A stretch of DNA of 64,000 nt, from assembly GCA_045657265.1 (NCBI GenBank), contig JAZOSU010000001.1, positions 2,653 to 66,652 of the forward strand. Reading direction: 5' to 3'. The notes beneath the pieces were generated by a model. It did no database searches. It was not told the DNA's origin and saw only the letters and a list, made by a program, of their open reading frames with translations. Shown here in pieces: positions 4,093-49,612 of this stretch. The position numbers and the translations under genes were made by a program. Source of the stretch: Eubacteriales bacterium. GTDB taxonomy: Bacteria > Bacillota > Clostridia > Oscillospirales > QAKW01. The stretch's first letter is position 1. Each line of letters begins with the position of its first letter.

Positions 4093-4952
4093 GAGATATT
4101 TTTACTTCAAAAACTTTTATAGCGATGTGCATAATTGCCGTCTTGCTTATAGGAATGATGGTAGTGAGCGCAGTAGACAGAGGCAAAGTGACAGTTTTCG
4201 AGGATTTTGTAGGTATGTTTATCACACCTTTGCAGAATTTTTGCACAACCGTTTCTTCCGAGTCGGGTGATTTTATTAAAATTTTCACTCAGCACGATAA
4301 ACTTACGGAAGAAAACGACAAACTGAAAAATGAACTTGCCTCAGTTAGTCGCGCCCTCAGGGATGCTCAGGAATACAAGCTTGAAAATGACAGTCTCAAA
4401 CAGATGCTTGATATCAAACAGGCTCGTCAGGATTTCGTTTTTGAATCTGCTCTTATTGTTGCAAACGAGCACACAGGATATTCTCATACTCTGACTCTCA
4501 ATAAAGGCAGTCTGAGTAACATCAAAAAGCGTGACGTTGTTATTACCGCTGATGGACTTGTAGGTTACGTCAGCGAGCTTGGCACTACCTGGTGCAAAAT
4601 CACAACCGTGCTTGATTCTTCCTGTGAAATAGGCGCACTTATACCAAGAACTCAGGATATAGGCGTTCTTGAAGGTGATTATGCTCTTTCAACAAACGGA
4701 AACTGCAAAGTTTCATATCTTGGAAACGACGTTTCTCTCAATGCAGGTGACAGCGTTGTAACATCAGGCATTGGCGGTGTGTTTCCGTCAAGAATTATGA
4801 TAGGTAATATAGTAGAAATCAAACCCGAAAGTCACGGAATATCGCAGTATGCGGTTTTAGAACCTGCTGTTGATTTTAGCAAACTCAAAAACGTTTTTGT
4901 AATAACCGATTTTACAGAAAACACAGAGTCTGAAACTACTGAGGATAATTAA
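4089..4952 (+). CDS. mreC: rod shape-determining protein MreC
   Basis: N-terminal TM helix, coiled coil, and beta-rich C-terminal domain ([21 protein letters not shown]). Located after mreB with a 4 nt overlap. Confidence 0.85.
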
Positions 4953-5479
4953 TGTTTTCAAAACAGTATACACCAATTAAAATAACAGTCTACGGAGCGT
5001 TTTTAGTGGTATGTTATCTGCTTCAAAGCGTACCCGCTCTGGGCTTTCAATTTATGAGCACATCACCTGAACTTCTTCTTGTGCTCTGTATTTGTGTTGC
5101 CTATAACGAAAGTGAGACTTTTTCTGCATTTTTCGGTCTTGCCGCAGGACTGCTTAACGATATAATAACCGACAACATTGTAGGTAAAAGCGCCGTTTTG
5201 TTTATGTTTGCCGCATTTATAATATCTATACTTCTCAAAACTCTTCTGCGCACTTTTTTTCTGACATACATATTTACAGTACTGGTTACAGTGATTAGCT
5301 TTTTAATTATCGAATACGTATTTACTTGTATGTTTTTTGAGCCTATTCCCTTTGGTCTGGCTCTTTTGAAAATAATACTTCCAAAATTCTTTTTCACGGG
5401 AGTTATAGCTTATCCGCTTTATTTCGGAGTGAAATTCTTCAAAGAAAAGCTTTGGTCGGGAGGTGAACAAAGCTTATGA
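4952..5479 (+). CDS. mreD: rod shape-determining protein MreD
   Basis: 175 aa polytopic membrane protein lying between mreC and PBP2. Confidence 0.7.
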   Translation: MFSKQYTPIKITVYGAFLVVCYLLQSVPALGFQFMSTSPELLLVLCICVAYNESETFSAFFGLAAGLLNDIITDNIVGKSAVLFMFAAFIISILLKTLLRTFFLTYIFTVLVTVISFLIIEYVFTCMFFEPIPFGLALLKIILPKFFFTGVIAYPLYFGVKFFKEKLWSGGEQSL

Positions 5480-42104: not shown

Positions 42105-42524
42105 TTAAGGATGCTTAATTTGATCAAAGCTGTAATGTCCGTCAACACCGTCAGTTGTATCAGTAGTTATAACAACATAATAAGGATATGCAGCGTCAGG
42201 TACAAAATATCCTGAATTATATGTATTTCCTGTATGATTAACAGTAAGTACAAGCTGATCTTTTTGATACTTTCTCCATTGGTAAACTTTAGCAGTAACT
42301 GTACAGCTCTCCGGATTATCTACAGAAATATTCAAACGTGTTTCTACATCATCTAACGCGTAACTTATCTGTTTATCAGCATTAAACTTCGAGGAGTCTA
42401 TCGGTATAGAATAGCTGTTTCTCAAAGTTTTTGTCTCGAAAGCTGCTGATACAAAGATTGACATGGTGCAAATAAACAATATAACCATAATGATAGCTGT
42501 TAAAAATTTATTTGATTTTTTCAT
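42105..42524 (-). CDS. hypothetical secreted or membrane-anchored protein
   Basis: 139 aa with an N-terminal signal/anchor (FLTAIIMVILFICTMSIFVSAA) and a beta-rich remainder. No family recognised. Confidence 0.55.
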   Translation of the reverse strand: MKKSNKFLTAIIMVILFICTMSIFVSAAFETKTLRNSYSIPIDSSKFNADKQISYALDDVETRLNISVDNPESCTVTAKVYQWRKYQKDQLVLTVNHTGNTYNSGYFVPDAAYPYYVVITTDTTDGVDGHYSFDQIKHP

Positions 42525-42552
42525 ATTCCTATTTCTTTTCTAAACCTTGTTA

Positions 42553-42975
42553 TTACATATTTTCGTCATAAAGAACATCTAACTTATCGGTAAGAGGTCT
42601 AAAATAGTCTGTGTCGACTGTATATATGTATTTGTACTCCTTTGTCTGCCACCATATTGTAGAAGAGCCAAAGTCATATGATTTATATTCGCCGTCTTTA
42701 AATTTGACATCAAACCCATATGTCCAGCCGTCTGATGTGCCTGTTTCTTCACTGCTAATAATAGTTGCGCCTTGCAAATAATCTACAAATTCTTTTATTT
42801 CGTCTTTATCCGTTATATTTTCTCTATACTGCATTTTCGCAATTTGAATTTCCTCTATGTCATCTGCATTCCAGTCGGAGAATAGCTTTTCTTTTTTATT
42901 AGCCAAGCAACCCGAAACCAAAACAACTGGTAAAACTATACAAATAATTAAAGTAAATATTTTTGTGTTTTTCAT
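42553..42975 (-). CDS. hypothetical lipoprotein
   Basis: 140 aa with a lipobox (LVSGC) after a hydrophobic signal. No family recognised. Confidence 0.6.
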   Translation of the reverse strand: MKNTKIFTLIICIVLPVVLVSGCLANKKEKLFSDWNADDIEEIQIAKMQYRENITDKDEIKEFVDYLQGATIISSEETGTSDGWTYGFDVKFKDGEYKSYDFGSSTIWWQTKEYKYIYTVDTDYFRPLTDKLDVLYDENM

Positions 42976-43481: not shown

Positions 43482-43515
43482 TTGTAGTTAGATACAATAC
43501 CTTTTTTTAAAAGGA

Positions 43516-44355
43516 GTGAATATTAAAAGAAATATGAGCAAAAAACAAAAACTTATAAGTATTATCGTTTTTATTTCGGTAATGGTACTTTTGCTTATAG
43601 GTATTTTTGCACTGCCGTCAAAAGGCGGACATGCTTCCATTCAGGAAGTTATGCAAAACGAGGTTTTGCACGAAACTCACAAAATAAGCCTATTTGGTTT
43701 AATGGATGTAAACCCCGGTCTTATTTCAGCTTTTGTTGTGACAGGAATGATATTCCTGTTTGCGCTGATAGTGCGAATATTCGTAATACCTAAATTTACT
43801 ATTATCCCGAATAAATTTCAGCTACTTCTGGAACAAGCGGTAGGTCTGTTTGACGGACTTGCAAAATCCAACAGTCCTCATAACAGCGGCTTTATCGGTG
43901 CTTACGTGTTTGCGGCAGGTGTTTATATTTTTATAAGCACAATATTCGAGCTTTTTGGATTTCAAGCAGTAAACACCCTTGGAACATCCCAGACACTTCC
44001 CGCTCCTCTTGCTGATATAAACGGAGCAATTGCAATGGGCATTATGTCATACGGCATAATTCTCATAGGCGGAATTGTCACAAACGGACTAAGCGGAGCA
44101 GGACACGCTCTGAAAGATTTTTCACTACCCATATCTATGAGCTTCCGTCTTTTCGGAGCTATGCTCAGCGGTGCTTTGGTAACAGAGCTTGTATATCATT
44201 ATATGTCGCTGAGTTTTGTACTGCCGGTTATAGTCGGAGTACTGTTTACACTTATACACGCAGTTGTTCAGGCATACGTACTTACGATGCTTACAGCACT
44301 GTTTTTCGGAGAATGTACCAAACCACATAAAACACATAAAAAGGAGAAAAAATAA
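43516..44355 (+). CDS. atpB: F0F1 ATP synthase subunit a
   Basis: Polytopic protein with the conserved Arg in SMSFRLFGAMLSG. The start is uncertain: GTG 43516 overlaps the AAGGAG RBS, and ATG 43534 is 17 nt downstream of it. Confidence 0.85.
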   Translation: MNIKRNMSKKQKLISIIVFISVMVLLLIGIFALPSKGGHASIQEVMQNEVLHETHKISLFGLMDVNPGLISAFVVTGMIFLFALIVRIFVIPKFTIIPNKFQLLLEQAVGLFDGLAKSNSPHNSGFIGAYVFAAGVYIFISTIFELFGFQAVNTLGTSQTLPAPLADINGAIAMGIMSYGIILIGGIVTNGLSGAGHALKDFSLPISMSFRLFGAMLSGALVTELVYHYMSLSFVLPVIVGVLFTLIHAVVQAYVLTMLTALFFGECTKPHKTHKKEKK

Positions 44356-44356
44356 A

Positions 44357-44710
44357 ATGAAAAAAGCAATATTCTTATTTGTAATTATTATGATGATAGC
44401 TGCTCTTGCAATGCCTGTTTTTGCAAACGAAGCAAATGCACAGACCGAAGATGCCGCTACTGTTGAAACACAGGCAGAAGATATGACAAAATCACACAAA
44501 GCATATGCCGCAGGTATCTGCGTTGCTCTTGCTGCTGTTGCAGGTGCTATCGGTATGGCAATAGCAATATGCAAATCAAATGAGAGCATTGCACGTCAGC
44601 CTGAAGCTGAGGGTTCTATCAAATCAAATATGATGCTTGGTCTCGTATTTATCGAAACTGCGATCATCTACGCTCTTATCGTTGCTATTCTCATTATATT
44701 TGTTCTTTAA
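44357..44710 (+). CDS. atpE: F0F1 ATP synthase subunit c, possibly with an N-terminal extension
   Basis: C-terminal 75 aa form a canonical c hairpin (IARQPE loop, carboxylate in VFIETAIIY). ATG 44357 has a strong AAGGAG RBS and adds a signal-peptide-like 42 aa. The alternative internal ATG is at 44483. Confidence 0.85.
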   Translation: MKKAIFLFVIIMMIAALAMPVFANEANAQTEDAATVETQAEDMTKSHKAYAAGICVALAAVAGAIGMAIAICKSNESIARQPEAEGSIKSNMMLGLVFIETAIIYALIVAILIIFVL

Positions 44711-44723
44711 GGAGTGTCTTTAA

Positions 44724-45209
44724 ATGCCGCTTAATATTGATTTTCAACAAGTTCTTTTGCATATGCTGAACTTTGTTATTTTATTTGGCATATTATATTT
44801 TTTGCTGTACGGTCCTGTTAAAAAGTTTATGGACACCCGCTCACAGACCTATAAAGATATTGATGACCAGATAAACAAAAAACTTGAAGATGCAAATCAG
44901 ACTAAAGCCGAGTATGAGAAAAAACTCGAAAACGCTGACAATGAAATTGCCAAAAAACTTGCACTTGCTGAAGCAGAAGCAGAAAAACAGGCTCAGGAGA
45001 TTTGCAAACAAGCTAAATCCGATGCCGAAAAAATCATTTTGAAAGCAGAAGCAGAAGCAGAAAAAGAACGCATTCAGTTAATTGAATCTTCAAGAAAAGA
45101 AATAGCAGAATCTGCATCTGAAATGGCAGAAAAAATTGTTGCTCAGAGTATCCTTGACACATATAACCAGTTTATTTCTTCCGCCGAAAGAGGTAATAAA
45201 GATGCTTAA
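44724..45209 (+). CDS. atpF: F0F1 ATP synthase subunit b
   Basis: 161 aa with an N-terminal TM helix and a long charged helix (AEAEAEKQAQE...). Confidence 0.85.
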   Translation: MPLNIDFQQVLLHMLNFVILFGILYFLLYGPVKKFMDTRSQTYKDIDDQINKKLEDANQTKAEYEKKLENADNEIAKKLALAEAEAEKQAQEICKQAKSDAEKIILKAEAEAEKERIQLIESSRKEIAESASEMAEKIVAQSILDTYNQFISSAERGNKDA

Positions 45210-46904
45210 TGCAATAATCTATGCAAAAATTGCTCCAACAGAAGAGCAAAGCGCAAAAATTAAAAGTTTTCTCACTAAAAAATACGGTGAGAAAATAAAG
45301 CTTTCGTTTCATAGAGATGAAACCGTAATAGGCGGTTTTCGTCTTGAAGTAGAAACGGATATCTATGACTTTTCTATAACTGGCAGACTTGAACAACTTA
45401 AAACACATATAGAATCTCTCGGTGTAAAAGAAGATATCGTACCTCTTCTTAAATCAACTGCAAAAAACTGGACACCGAAAGTTCTTGCAGAAGAAATCGG
45501 TACAGTTACCGCTATTTCTGACGGAATTGCAACTGTTGAAGGGCTTCACAACGCTACATACGGTGAAATTCTTATGTTTCACGGCGGTGTACGCGGTATG
45601 GTTCAGAATATTACTCTGAAAAATGCCGACTGCATATTATTCGACGATAACGACGAAATTTCCGAAGGAACCAAAGTTAAACGTACAGGAAAAGTAGCAG
45701 GTATTGCAGTAGATGAAAAACTGCTCGGAAGAGTAATCGGTCCGCTCGGAAATGCAATTGACGGAGGCGGAGAAATACATTGCGAGGGTTATCGCAAAAT
45801 AGAACAATCCGCTCCGGGCATTACTGACAGAAGCCCCGTTAAAAGACCTATGGAAACAGGAATTCTTGCTATTGATTCCATGTTTCCTATCGGAAGAGGT
45901 CAGAGGGAACTTATTATAGGAGACCGTCAGACAGGTAAAACTGCTATTGCCCTTGATACTATTCTTAATCAGAAAGGCAAAGACGTTATCTGTATTTACG
46001 TCGCAATAGGTCAGAAAGCAAGTTCAGTTGCCCAAATCGTTTCAACACTTAAACAAAAAGGCGCTATGGATTATACAGTGGTAGTGTGCGCATCTGCCGC
46101 TGAAAGTCCTGCGCTTCAATATATTGCGCCCTTTGCAGGTTGTGCAATTGGCGAATATTTTATGGAAAAAGGTCAGGATGTACTTATTGTATATGATGAT
46201 CTTTCAAAACACGCAGTAGCTTACCGCTCACTGAGTCTTTTGCTTGGTCGTTCTCCCGGCAGAGAGGCATATCCAGGTGACGTATTCTATCTTCATTCAC
46301 GTCTTTTAGAACGTTCCGCACAGCTTTCAGACGAAAACGGCGGTGGCAGTATGACTGCTCTTCCTATCGTTGAAACTCAGGCAGGTGACGTATCTGCGTA
46401 TATACCAACTAATATAATCTCAATTACTGACGGTCAGATATTCCTTGAAAGTGACCTTTTCTTTGCAGGTCAGCGTCCTGCCGTAAATATCGGGCTTTCT
46501 GTTTCCCGTGTGGGCAAGGATGCTCAGACAAGTGCTATGAAAAAATCAGGGGGTACACTTCGTCTTGACCTTGCACAGTACAGAGAAATGAAGATATTCA
46601 CACAGTTTTCAAGCGACCTTGACGAGTCTGTAAAACGTCAGCTGATTTACGGCGGCGGTCTTATGCAGCTTTTACGTCAGGGCAGATATAAACCATACGC
46701 TCAGCATCAGCAGGTCATTCTGCTTCTTGCAGGAACTGCGCATCTTTTTGAAAACATTGCCGAGGATGATATCTGCGACAAAGCAGAAGCGCTTCTTGAA
46801 CATTTTAGCAAAGAACACTCTGCTATTTGTACCAAAATAGATAGCACAGGTAAACTCAGCGATCAGGAAAAACAGGAAATACTTAAAATATCAGGTGATT
46901 TCTT

Positions 46905-46917
<13 letters not shown>
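45202..46917 (+). CDS. atpA: F1 alpha subunit fused at its N-terminus to a delta (OSCP) C-terminal domain
   Basis: Residues 1-70 resemble the delta C-terminal half (APTEEQSAKIKSFLTKKYGEKIKLSFHRDETVIGGFRLEVETDIYDFSITGRLEQL). From about residue 72 on, a full alpha follows (GTVTAISDGIATVEGL, Walker A GDRQTGKT). One uninterrupted frame; ATG 45202 follows GAAAGAGG. Confidence 0.85.

Positions 46918-49612
<2,695 letters not shown>

What the first reader, a model, noticed from the sequence alone, without database searches (positions are those of the whole stretch)
45202..46917. No separate delta gene: a delta (OSCP) C-terminal domain is fused in frame to the N-terminus of the alpha subunit
The operon order is a-c-b-[fusion]-gamma-beta-epsilon. 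The b gene ends at 45209, and the next ORF starts at 45202 with about 70 residues that resemble only the C-terminal half of delta (..APTEEQSAKIKSFL..ETVIGGFRLEVETDIYDFSITGRLEQL..). It then runs without a stop into a complete alpha, including an N-terminal helix-like segment (KEDIVPLLKSTAKNW) before GTVTAISDGIATVEGL. The helical N-terminal domain of delta, which normally docks on alpha N-termini, has no coding space anywhere in the operon. A covalent delta-CTD/alpha tether would replace that non-covalent contact in the peripheral stalk. With three alpha copies per complex it raises a stoichiometry question: three tethered delta-CTDs for one b dimer. I do not recall this architecture being described; b-delta fusions are the known variant.
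Basis: partly seen in the sequence, partly recalled or inferred. Interest (0 to 1): 0.55.

Follow-up and report, generated by a model that had tools for sequence, protein, structure and literature searches.

The report
Natural delta-CTD/alpha fused ATP synthase subunit
This bacterium's ATP synthase has no separate delta subunit: only the half of delta that holds the outer stalk is built onto every alpha subunit, the same design engineers used in 2025 to give the enzyme up to three stalks and a higher proton-per-ATP ratio.

Summary
ORF 45202-46917 (571 aa) is one reading frame. It holds a delta/OSCP C-terminal domain (residues 1-72), then a complete alpha subunit that keeps its N-terminal helix. 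The operon is a-c-b-[deltaCTD-alpha]-gamma-beta-epsilon, with no atpH and no coding room for a delta N-terminal domain.

It is not an assembly error. 119 of the 120 closest database homologues, and all 80 related genome loci fetched, have the same fusion and the same delta-less operon.

Ueno et al. (Nat Commun 2025; PDB 9JC1) built this same "deltaΔN-alpha" fusion in Bacillus PS3. They showed it recruits up to three b2 stalks, each with an a subunit, and raises H+/ATP to about 5.9. They also noted natural fusions in Acidaminococcus fermentans and two other proteins, none tested. 9JC1 is the best PDB match by fold, and the only chain that aligns over both parts by sequence.

Most likely mechanism: losing the symmetry-breaking delta N-domain leaves three equivalent b2 docking sites, so the enzyme can carry more than one stator. 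This is inferred, not shown. What is new here is the breadth across gut and rumen Clostridia.

The parts
43516..44355 (+). atpB, Fo subunit a (279-aa ORF). The true start is uncertain: the GTG at 43516 overlaps the SD AAAGGAG, and the next in-frame ATG is at 43534.
   Evidence: PF00119 ATP-synt_A, E 1.5e-16. DNA read.
44354..44710 (+). atpE, Fo subunit c (118 aa). It has an N-terminal signal-peptide-like extension and an acidic linker before the usual hairpin.
   Evidence: PF00137, E 1.1e-13, on residues 52-114. The extension and the motif FIETAIIYAL are conserved in the related loci.
44724..45209 (+). atpF, subunit b (161 aa). It has ordinary length and carries no delta-like extension.
   Evidence: PF00430, E 4.9e-22, on residues 11-139. 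An alignment of 79 b sequences shows a conserved C-terminal motif, S.SD.YDQFL..A.R.
45186..45193 (+). Shine-Dalgarno sequence GAAAGAGG of the fused gene, 8 nt before the ATG. The start overlaps the atpF stop by 8 nt, consistent with translational coupling.
   Evidence: Read directly from the sequence.
45202..46917 (+). Fused gene for deltaCTD-alpha (571 aa plus stop).
   Evidence: An identical 571-aa protein (P0001) is in the public collection, from an NCBI contig of 74 kb.
45202..45417 (+). Delta/OSCP C-terminal domain, residues 1-72: four strands and two helices.
   Evidence: PF00213 profile positions 104-171 of 172, E 5e-12. AF2 pLDDT above 90. Foldseek top hits are delta CTDs.
45418..45489 (+). 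Short linker (SLGVK) plus the alpha N-terminal helix (EDIVPLLKSTAKNW, then TPKVLAEEIG), residues 73-96. This junction motif, IIPL(I/L)(K/R)ET..NWTP.ALAEEIG, is the most conserved stretch of the N-terminal region across the family.
   Evidence: Alignment of 110 homologues. Helix at 79-89 in the model. TIGR00962 aligns from profile position 5 at residue 77. Aligns to the alpha N-helix of 9jc1_I.
45490..46917 (+). Alpha body: beta-barrel, P-loop nucleotide-binding domain (GDRQTGKT) and C-terminal helical domain.
   Evidence: PF02874, PF00006 (E 4.9e-83) and PF00306.
46905..47819 (+). atpG, gamma (304 aa).
   Evidence: PF00231, E 3.3e-88.
47806..49209 (+). atpD, beta (467 aa).
   Evidence: PF00006, E 1.5e-73.
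49193..49612 (+). atpC, epsilon (139 aa), with its C-terminal helical domain.
   Evidence: PF02823, E 1.5e-17; PF00401, E 2.2e-5.

Best explanation
The gene encodes a genuine, conserved 'deltaΔN-alpha' subunit of the housekeeping F-type ATP synthase of an uncultured Clostridia bacterium. Each of the three alpha subunits carries its own delta C-terminal domain, joined by a very short linker to the alpha N-terminal helix. In ordinary enzymes that helix packs against the delta CTD to form the docking site for the C-termini of the b2 dimer.

The delta N-terminal domain is absent. In ordinary enzymes it sits on the three-fold axis, binds the other two alpha N-termini and so limits the enzyme to one stalk. 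Without it, the F1 head offers three equivalent b2 docking sites.

The most likely consequence is that the enzyme can assemble with two or three peripheral stalks, each holding its own a subunit against the c-ring. That would multiply the ions moved per turn. It would allow ATP synthesis at a low ion-motive force, or more ions pumped per ATP when the enzyme runs in reverse. Both would suit a fermentative gut or rumen anaerobe.

Shown here: the fusion, its domain boundaries, its conservation, the delta-less operon, and its equivalence in sequence and fold to the engineered construct.

Inferred: the number of stalks and a subunits in the native enzyme, and the physiological benefit.
For: Domain architecture and boundaries.

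The fusion is conserved, so it is not an artefact:
- 119 of the 120 best homologues (63-77% identical) are 570-588 aa, or about 670 aa, and begin with the same delta CTD and junction motif.
- A scan of species-representative genomes returned 80 loci. All match from residue 1-4 through 115 of the query.
- Wherever the flanks are present, the operon is a-c-b-fusion-gamma-beta-epsilon with no delta ORF.

No alternative route to a free alpha was found:
- There is no in-frame ATG, GTG or TTG between codon 1 and codon 125 in the window.
- There is no conserved internal start in 73 related genes.

No delta-NTD-like coding piece was found in the six-frame translation of the 64-kb window, or in the 80 loci.

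The b subunit keeps a conserved C-terminal motif, as expected if it still docks on the delta CTD.

The engineered equivalent is the closest solved structure:
- PDB 9jc1 chains I, J and K (Bacillus PS3 delta residues 105-178, linker, alpha) are the top three Foldseek matches to the full-length model, over 568 columns.
- 9jc1_I is the only PDB chain that aligns by sequence from residue 4 across both parts.
- That construct bound 0, 1, 2 or 3 stalks in 15, 51, 26 and 8% of cryo-EM particles. Every stalk carried an a subunit.
- Its a and b stoichiometries were 2.4 and 2.0 times wild type, its H+/ATP was 5.9, and it made ATP at a pmf where wild type could not.

Nature does build multi-stalk F-type enzymes. 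Chloroflexus aurantiacus F1Fo is a2 b4 delta2 c10.

The same authors predicted a multi-stalk enzyme for the natural Acidaminococcus fusion.
Against: No native enzyme of this type has been purified or imaged. I found no such report in the searchable library.

Even in the engineered enzyme, the single-stalk form was the commonest class on cryo-EM grids.

Stalk number depends on how much a and b the cell makes and on c-ring size, and neither can be read from sequence. The a gene has a poor initiation context, which might keep a limiting.

Variants with two tandem delta CTDs per alpha (six per F1) exist. That is more docking modules than a c-ring could plausibly serve, so not every delta CTD need bind a stalk.

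A delta or delta-NTD gene elsewhere in this genome cannot be excluded from a 64-kb window.
Confidence: 0.6

Rival explanations
1. Single-stalk enzyme with a covalent tether. Only one of the three delta CTDs binds the single b2 dimer and the other two are idle. The covalent link compensates for the lost delta-NTD contacts, and the ion/ATP ratio is unchanged.
For: 51% of the engineered particles carried one stalk. The a gene has a weak initiation context, with the SD overlapping the GTG and the next ATG 17 nt away, so a may be limiting. Tandem double-CTD variants show that the number of delta CTDs need not equal the number of stalks.
Against: In the engineered enzyme, nothing beyond the fusion was needed to obtain multiple stalks from an unchanged operon. 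Biochemical stoichiometry gave about two stalks per complex, and the authors attribute the lower cryo-EM count to loss on the grid. There is no evident selective reason to lose the delta NTD and keep this state across at least 80 species if the outcome were only a weaker single attachment.
Confidence: 0.3
2. The fusion is only apparent. Either a free alpha and a free delta CTD are made by internal initiation or proteolytic cleavage, or a full-length delta encoded elsewhere in the genome serves as the real stalk cap.
For: Only 64 kb of the genome could be inspected. Post-translational cleavage cannot be judged from sequence. In two related genomes the gamma gene runs in frame into beta, yet keeps an internal SD and ATG for beta. 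Readthrough ORFs with internal starts therefore do occur in this group.
Against: There is no in-frame start codon between codons 1 and 125. There is no conserved Met or SD at the junction in 73 genes; the SD-like hits come from Glu-Glu codons next to Val codons inside the barrel. The junction is the most conserved part of the N-terminal region, which is not what a cleavable or dispensable linker would show. No delta-NTD-like piece was found in the window or in +/-7 kb of the 80 loci. [quoted passage not shown]
Confidence: 0.07
3. Sequencing or assembly artefact, or a decaying pseudogene: a deletion removed the delta NTD and the delta stop codon in this one assembly.
For: None, beyond the prior that fused ORFs are often errors. 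One database homologue (P0002, 832 aa) is indeed an assembly duplication. One related locus (L085) is riddled with frameshifts.
Against: The same architecture is found at 63-77% identity in 119 independent protein clusters and in 80 species genomes from many studies. The delta CTD has invariant positions and a confident fold. The alpha part scores far above the equivalog cut-off.
Confidence: 0.01

Closest known systems
Engineered Bacillus PS3 deltaΔN-alpha fused FoF1 (Ueno et al., Nat Commun 2025, PMC12229609; PDB 9JC1)
   Same: The domain order and boundaries are the same. The delta CTD (PS3 residues 105-178, matching window residues 1-72) sits directly in front of the alpha N-terminal helix, with no delta NTD and no free delta. 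9jc1 is the best fold match, and 9jc1_I is the only PDB chain that aligns by sequence over both parts.
   Different: The window gene is natural, not designed. Its linker is about 4-5 residues shorter than the engineered one (alignment gaps). The junction is a conserved motif rather than a Gly/Ser linker. The native epsilon keeps its C-terminal domain. Stalk number and ion/ATP ratio are unknown here.
Natural delta-alpha fusions noted in Acidaminococcus fermentans (UniProt D2RLW6), G4Q3K6 and A0A1I2C5T3 (discussion and Suppl. Fig. 9 of PMC12229609)
   Same: As described there, delta and alpha are fused in one gene, the delta NTD is missing, and the authors predict a multi-stalk enzyme.
   Different: Acidaminococcus is a Negativicute, whereas the window and the 80 loci are Clostridia lineages. 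I could not obtain those sequences, so common descent versus independent fusion is untested. That paper gives three examples. The family seen here covers at least 80 and up to about 400 species genomes.
[quoted passage not shown]
   Same: It is a natural F-type enzyme with more than one delta CTD per F1, and therefore more than one b2-a stator. Its delta CTD is a fold match to the window's N-terminal domain.
   Different: There, delta is a free subunit with a shortened four-helix NTD that dimerises on top of F1, which fixes the number of stalks at two. Here there is no NTD at all, and the CTD is covalently attached to alpha.
Mycobacterial and Gordonia b-delta fusion (PDB 7JG5; PMC5709465)
   Same: A peripheral-stalk component is fused to a neighbouring gene product. 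The delta CTD is homologous.
   Different: There, a full delta with its NTD is fused to the C-terminus of one b-type subunit, and the enzyme has one stalk. Here b is free (161 aa) and the partner is alpha.
N-ATPase (Dibrova et al. 2010, PMC2881411)
   Same: The operon lacks atpH, and only a C-terminal delta-like region survives, fused to another subunit. The window's delta CTD hits the N-ATPase b model TIGR03321 at profile positions 188-245 of 246.
   Different: In N-ATPases the delta-like part is attached to b, not alpha. The gene order is atpDC-Q-R-BEFAG. The window's alpha scores 601 against the 750 cut-off of the N-ATPase alpha model, and its gene order is the ordinary F-type one.

Membership tests
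F-type ATP synthase alpha subunit (AtpA, TIGR00962) | Full-length match above the curated equivalog cut-off, covering the beta-barrel, P-loop nucleotide-binding domain and C-terminal domain. | tested here: met
   706.9 bits against a cut-off of 484.45, residues 77-563 on profile positions 5-493 of 503. PF02874, PF00006 and PF00306 all match.
ATP synthase delta / OSCP (PF00213, TIGR01145) | C-terminal alpha/beta domain that binds the b C-termini. | tested here: met
   PF00213 profile positions 104-171 of 172, E 5e-12. The confident AF2 domain matches the delta CTDs of 6n2y, 6oqr, 9itj and 7jg8 at rmsd 2.2-3.7 A. Binding to b itself was not tested.
ATP synthase delta / OSCP (PF00213, TIGR01145) | N-terminal helical bundle that caps F1 and binds the alpha N-termini. 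| tested here: not met
   Nothing matches profile positions 1-103. The ORF starts 2 residues before the CTD match, and the upstream gene is an ordinary b that ends 8 nt after the fusion's start codon. TIGR01145 scores 45.4, below its 57.5 cut-off. No NTD-like piece was found in the window or the related loci.
deltaΔN-alpha fused F-ATP synthase (engineered 9JC1; natural examples named by Ueno et al. 2025) | One polypeptide holding the delta CTD immediately N-terminal to a complete alpha, with no delta NTD. | tested here: met
   aligned to 9jc1_I over query residues 4-102; 9jc1 I/J/K are the top three fold matches over 568 columns.
deltaΔN-alpha fused F-ATP synthase (engineered 9JC1; natural examples named by Ueno et al. 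2025) | No separate delta subunit in the enzyme. | tested here: inconclusive
   There is no atpH in the operon, the 64-kb window, or +/-7 kb of the 80 related loci. The rest of the genome could not be searched.
deltaΔN-alpha fused F-ATP synthase (engineered 9JC1; natural examples named by Ueno et al. 2025) | More than one peripheral stalk (b2) and more than one a subunit per complex, with a raised ion/ATP ratio. | not testable with these tools
   This needs stoichiometry, cryo-EM or thermodynamic measurement of a native or expressed enzyme. It has been shown only for the engineered PS3 construct.
deltaΔN-alpha fused F-ATP synthase (engineered 9JC1; natural examples named by Ueno et al. 2025) | Common descent with the Acidaminococcus fermentans fusion (D2RLW6). 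| not tested
   The sequence was not obtainable. The AlphaFold-database library was not available.
Mycobacterial-type b-delta fusion | Delta fused to the C-terminus of a b-type subunit. | tested here: not met
   The b subunit is 161 aa with its own stop at 45207-45209. NF009961 (B/delta) scores 22.8-39.3 against a cut-off of 328.
N-ATPase | Gene order atpDC-atpQ-atpR-atpBEFAG, a long b with a delta-like tail, and N-type alpha and beta. | tested here: not met
   The gene order is a-c-b-alpha-gamma-beta-epsilon. TIGR03324 scores 601.3, below its 750.5 cut-off, and TIGR03321 b scores 55, below 224.7.

The most novel reading that the evidence does not exclude
A large, previously unsurveyed group of gut and rumen Clostridia (at least 80, possibly several hundred species) natively runs an F-type ATP synthase with two or three stators (a2-3 b4-6). 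The ion/ATP ratio would then be two to three times the value set by the c-ring. This would be a natural low-gear ATP synthase. It would lower the ion-motive force needed for ATP synthesis, or the ATP cost of maintaining a membrane potential, in fermentative anaerobes.

Related natural variants seen here point the same way: two tandem delta CTDs on alpha, and a free delta with one NTD and three tandem CTDs. They suggest that the number of delta CTDs per F1 is an evolutionary dial for stator number.
Probability: 0.45. Interest if true: 0.8.

Novelty: new member of a known kind. Interest (0 to 1): 0.55.

Why it matters
The ion/ATP ratio of ATP synthase has long been taken to be set only by c-ring size. 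In 2025 an engineered deltaΔN-alpha enzyme, and the two-stalk Chloroflexus enzyme, showed that the number of stators can also set it.

If the natural fusion in this window behaves like the engineered one, a widespread group of gut and rumen fermenters uses that second dial. That bears on three things: the minimum energy quantum for chemiosmotic ATP synthesis in anaerobes, energy budgets of Rnf/Ech-based fermentations, and ATP-yield engineering.

The practical gain is a well-populated natural family in which the published prediction can be tested. It includes a cultured isolate (Lachnospiraceae bacterium G41, locus L062) and variants with two delta CTDs.

The finding also flags an annotation problem. 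Pipelines that require eight F-type subunits would score these operons as incomplete. The named homologues I saw carry only the label 'subunit alpha'.

Tried and rejected
- Searching the protein collection with only the first 103 residues found nothing, because that tool needs shared 5-mers. The full-length query worked.
- Exact-sequence look-ups of the fusion, beta and CysS found no contig, although an identical protein (P0001) is in the collection. The source genome therefore stayed unidentified. The nearest species-genome locus is an uncultured Clostridiales MAG, at 56% identity over the N-terminal 115 residues.
A 6-sequence alignment worked. Because one of its two search patterns is generic for alpha, the '400 confirmed' figure is an upper estimate. 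Only the 80 returned loci were verified as fused.
- The all-against-all profile search and the profile search of the 90% clusters returned almost only contig-end fragments. Full-length fused proteins evidently cluster with ordinary alphas, so neither search gave a family size.
- The full-length AF2 model was mediocre (mean pLDDT 64). I therefore modelled residues 1-117 separately.
- The AlphaFold-database fold search, which might have retrieved D2RLW6 and named species, was unavailable.
- I looked for an internal start at the junction. The SD-like hits in 14 of 73 genes are Glu-Glu codons upstream of Val codons inside the barrel. They are not conserved and would delete the alpha N-helix, so I rejected them.
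- I considered reading Na+ versus H+ specificity from the c subunit. The site has E, T and Y but lacks the Gln of the I. tartaricus-type Na+ site.
- I considered judging a/b expression from initiation signals. I dropped this because no control set of canonical Clostridia operons was at hand.
Full report
**1. What is in the sequence**

- The + strand between 43516 and 49612 carries a compact F-type ATP synthase operon. Pfam identifies the products in this order: subunit a (PF00119), c (PF00137), b (PF00430, 161 aa), a 571-aa protein, gamma (PF00231), beta (PF00006) and epsilon (PF02823/PF00401).
- The 571-aa ORF starts with the ATG at 45202. This is 8 nt downstream of a GAAAGAGG Shine-Dalgarno, and it overlaps the TAA of the b gene (45207-45209).
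- Its first 69 residues match the last 68 positions of the OSCP/delta profile (PF00213 positions 104-171 of 172, E 5e-12, 46.7 bits, well above the 22.3 cut-off).
- The rest is a complete alpha. The atpA equivalog TIGR00962 aligns from its position 5 at residue 77 and scores 706.9 bits against a cut-off of 484. The alpha N-terminal helix is therefore kept.
- The full-delta equivalog TIGR01145 is matched only over its C-terminal third and stays below its cut-off (45.4 against 57.5).
- There is no coding room for a delta N-terminal domain between b and the fusion. b itself has normal length.
- The neighbouring genes are housekeeping (yidC, mnmE, cysS, cysE, rimO). This is therefore the chromosomal, presumably main, ATP synthase operon.

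**2. Is it real?**

- A search with the whole protein returned an identical 571-aa protein from a 74-kb NCBI contig. Among the 120 best hits (63-77% identity), 119 have the same N-terminal extension: 111 are 570-588 aa long and 8 are about 670 aa.
- The only exception, P0002, is an ordinary alpha with an assembly duplication.
- An alignment of 110 N-termini shows a conserved delta CTD, followed by a strikingly conserved junction, IIPL(I/L)(K/R)ET..NWTP.ALAEEIG. This runs straight into the GDGIATV motif of the alpha barrel.
- A scan of one genome per species (GTDB representatives) gave 578 pattern hits, of which 400 were confirmed by tblastn. The 80 loci returned all match the query from residue 1-4 to 115.
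  - They come from MAGs labelled Lachnospiraceae, Oscillospiraceae, Christensenellaceae, Anaerovoracaceae, Mogibacterium, Ruminococcus, Gallimonas and others.
  - One is a cultured isolate, Lachnospiraceae bacterium G41.
  - One of the two search patterns is generic for alpha, so I treat 80 as verified and 400 as an upper estimate.
- In every locus where the flanks exist, the operon is a-c-b-fusion-gamma-beta-epsilon with no delta ORF.
- Single-sequence probes for a delta N-domain found nothing in the six-frame translation of the window or in those loci.
- Assembly error and pseudogene decay are therefore excluded.

**3. Is a free alpha made anyway?**

- In the window there is no in-frame ATG, GTG or TTG between codon 1 and codon 125.
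- Across 73 related genes no start codon with a ribosome-binding site is conserved at the junction. The few SD-like matches are Glu-Glu codons next to Val codons inside the barrel.
- Proteolytic processing cannot be judged from sequence. However, the junction is the best conserved part of the N-terminal region, which argues against a disposable linker.

**4. Structure**

- The full-length AlphaFold model was only moderate (mean pLDDT 64). Even so, its three best Foldseek matches in the PDB are chains I, J and K of entry 9JC1, aligned over 568 columns. Ordinary alphas align over about 470-500 columns.
- A separate model of residues 1-117 is confident (pLDDT 92-96 over residues 1-60). It shows four strands and two helices, followed by a helix at 79-89.
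- Its 46 best PDB matches are all C-terminal domains of delta, OSCP or mycobacterial b-delta: Bacillus PS3 6n2y_I at rmsd 2.9 A over 69 columns, E. coli 6oqr_W at 2.2 A over 67, and Chloroflexus 9itj_S.
- By sequence, 9jc1_I is the only PDB chain that aligns with the query from residue 4 across both the delta part and the alpha N-helix.

**5. What 9JC1 is, and why it settles the interpretation**

- 9JC1 is the engineered Bacillus PS3 enzyme of Ueno et al. (bioRxiv 2024; Nat Commun 2025, PMC12229609).
- Their reasoning was that the delta N-domain sits on the pseudo-three-fold axis of alpha3beta3 and so limits the enzyme to one peripheral stalk. They deleted it (residues 2-104) and fused the delta C-domain through a short Gly/Ser linker to the N-terminus of alpha.
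- Results for that enzyme:
  - The a and b stoichiometries were 2.4 and 2.0 times those of wild type.
  - Cryo-EM classes had 0, 1, 2 and 3 stalks in 15, 51, 26 and 8% of particles. Every stalk carried an a subunit.
  - The delta CTD / alpha N-helix / b2 interface was canonical at all three sites.
  - H+/ATP was 5.9, and ATP was synthesised at a pmf too low for wild type.
- In their discussion they report that the Acidaminococcus fermentans operon has a delta-alpha gene fusion lacking the delta N-domain (UniProt D2RLW6, Suppl. Fig. 9). They name two more proteins, G4Q3K6 and A0A1I2C5T3. They predict natural multi-stalk enzymes that 'await experimental verification'.
- A natural two-stalk, two-a F1Fo has since been solved from Chloroflexus aurantiacus. 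There, a shortened delta N-domain dimerises on top of F1 (PMC12002316).
- I found no later paper on a native delta-alpha enzyme.
- A 2025 database of rotary ATPases (ProAD) defines complete F-type sets as eight subunits, delta among them. It does not mention the fusion.

**6. Mechanism I consider most likely**

- The window's subunit is the natural counterpart of the engineered one. The delta boundary is the same: window residue 1 corresponds to about PS3 delta residue 105. The alpha N-helix is retained, and the natural linker is about 4-5 residues shorter.
- The b subunits of the family keep a conserved C-terminal motif, as expected if they still dock on the delta CTD.
- With no N-domain on the axis, the three alpha subunits offer three equivalent docking sites.
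- In the engineered case nothing more was needed for extra b2-a stators to assemble from an unchanged operon. My best estimate is therefore that the native enzyme carries more than one stator at least part of the time. That would give a proportionally higher ion/ATP ratio.
- That is inference. Stalk number depends on a and b supply and on c-ring size, and neither is readable here.
- I put 0.6 on the multi-stator reading, 0.3 on a single-stalk 'tether only' enzyme, and less than 0.1 on hidden delta, cleavage or internal initiation.

**7. Comparison and novelty**

- The gene is a member of the alpha family. It carries a delta C-domain, but it fails the delta family's N-domain criterion.
- It is not a mycobacterial-type b-delta fusion, because b is free.
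- It is not an N-ATPase, because the gene order and model scores are wrong. N-ATPases are still a useful precedent for an F-type enzyme that keeps only a delta-like C-terminal part, there attached to b.
- What this analysis adds:
  - The fusion is the rule in a large, diverse set of gut and rumen Clostridia, rather than three isolated proteins.
  - The operon context is uniformly delta-less.
  - There is no internal start.
  - Relatives exist with two tandem delta CTDs on alpha.

**8. Verdict**

- The feature is real, conserved and biologically interesting. However, its kind and its probable mechanism were published in 2025.
- Novelty: new member of a known kind. Interest: 0.55. The native stoichiometry is still untested, and this family offers many candidates in which to test it.

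Noticed in passing
window 44354-44500 (N-terminus of subunit c); also the c genes of L001-L080: Subunit c (118 aa) starts with a signal-peptide-like segment (MKKAIFLFVIIMMIAALAMPVFA/NE) and an acidic linker before the usual hairpin. This extension and the ion-site helix FIETAIIYAL are conserved in all the related loci shown. The Gln of the classical Na+ site is replaced by Met or Gly, so ion specificity is unclear.
   Followed up: partly
L003 8729-11065 and L019 8732-11068: In two related MAGs the gamma gene has no stop codon and runs in frame into beta, giving a 779-aa ORF. A strong internal SD (AAAGGGAGG) and ATG for beta are retained. A gamma-beta fusion protein would be hard to reconcile with a rotating gamma. 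This is probably readthrough plus internal initiation, but it is unexplained.
   Followed up: partly
P0032, P0035, P0038 and five other ~670-aa proteins; L081 7001-9013: These variants carry two tandem delta C-domains in front of alpha. The copies give a local alignment score of 186 in P0038. That makes six delta CTDs per F1. The operon in L081 also has a second, divergent c gene (4691-5059, 67 of 123 positions identical) upstream of a.
   Followed up: partly
P0263; L082 6001-7095 (also L083, L084): This is a free-standing delta of 364 aa with a normal N-domain followed by three tandem C-domain repeats. It sits in an otherwise canonical operon with an ordinary 504-aa alpha: an unannotated 120-aa ORF, then a-c-b-delta-alpha-gamma-beta-epsilon. 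It is listed in 44 blocks of the contig index, and 23 contigs were read. It is a different way of placing three delta CTDs on one F1.
   Followed up: partly
P0291; L085 6001-6570: This is another tandem duplication in which the repeated unit includes the junction motif (..NIVPQVKERIKNWTPKVLEQE.. and then again ..NVVPLIKETIKNWTPKALEK). It suggests a duplication event independent of the 670-aa group. The contig has frameshifts in gamma and beta, so the reading is uncertain.
   Followed up: no
window 45202-45480 against NCBIfam TIGR03321: The delta C-domain also hits the C-terminal end (profile positions 188-245 of 246) of the N-ATPase b-subunit model. N-ATPases lack atpH and any delta N-domain (PMC2881411). 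By the logic of Ueno et al., they too might not be limited to one stalk.
   Followed up: no
window 43500-43540: The a-subunit gene has an odd initiation region. The SD AAAGGAG overlaps the first possible start (GTG 43516), and the next in-frame ATG (43534) lies 17 nt beyond the SD. The true start and expression level of a are uncertain, and these are the parameters that would limit stator number.
   Followed up: no
window 42105-42975, minus strand: Two adjacent small ORFs (139 and 140 aa) with signal- or lipoprotein-like N-termini lie just upstream of the operon on the opposite strand. Neither matches any NCBIfam family.
   Followed up: no
P0002 (832 aa, second-best hit): This is an ordinary, unfused alpha in which residues 8-339 are repeated in tandem. 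It is an assembly artefact, not a fusion protein.
   Followed up: yes
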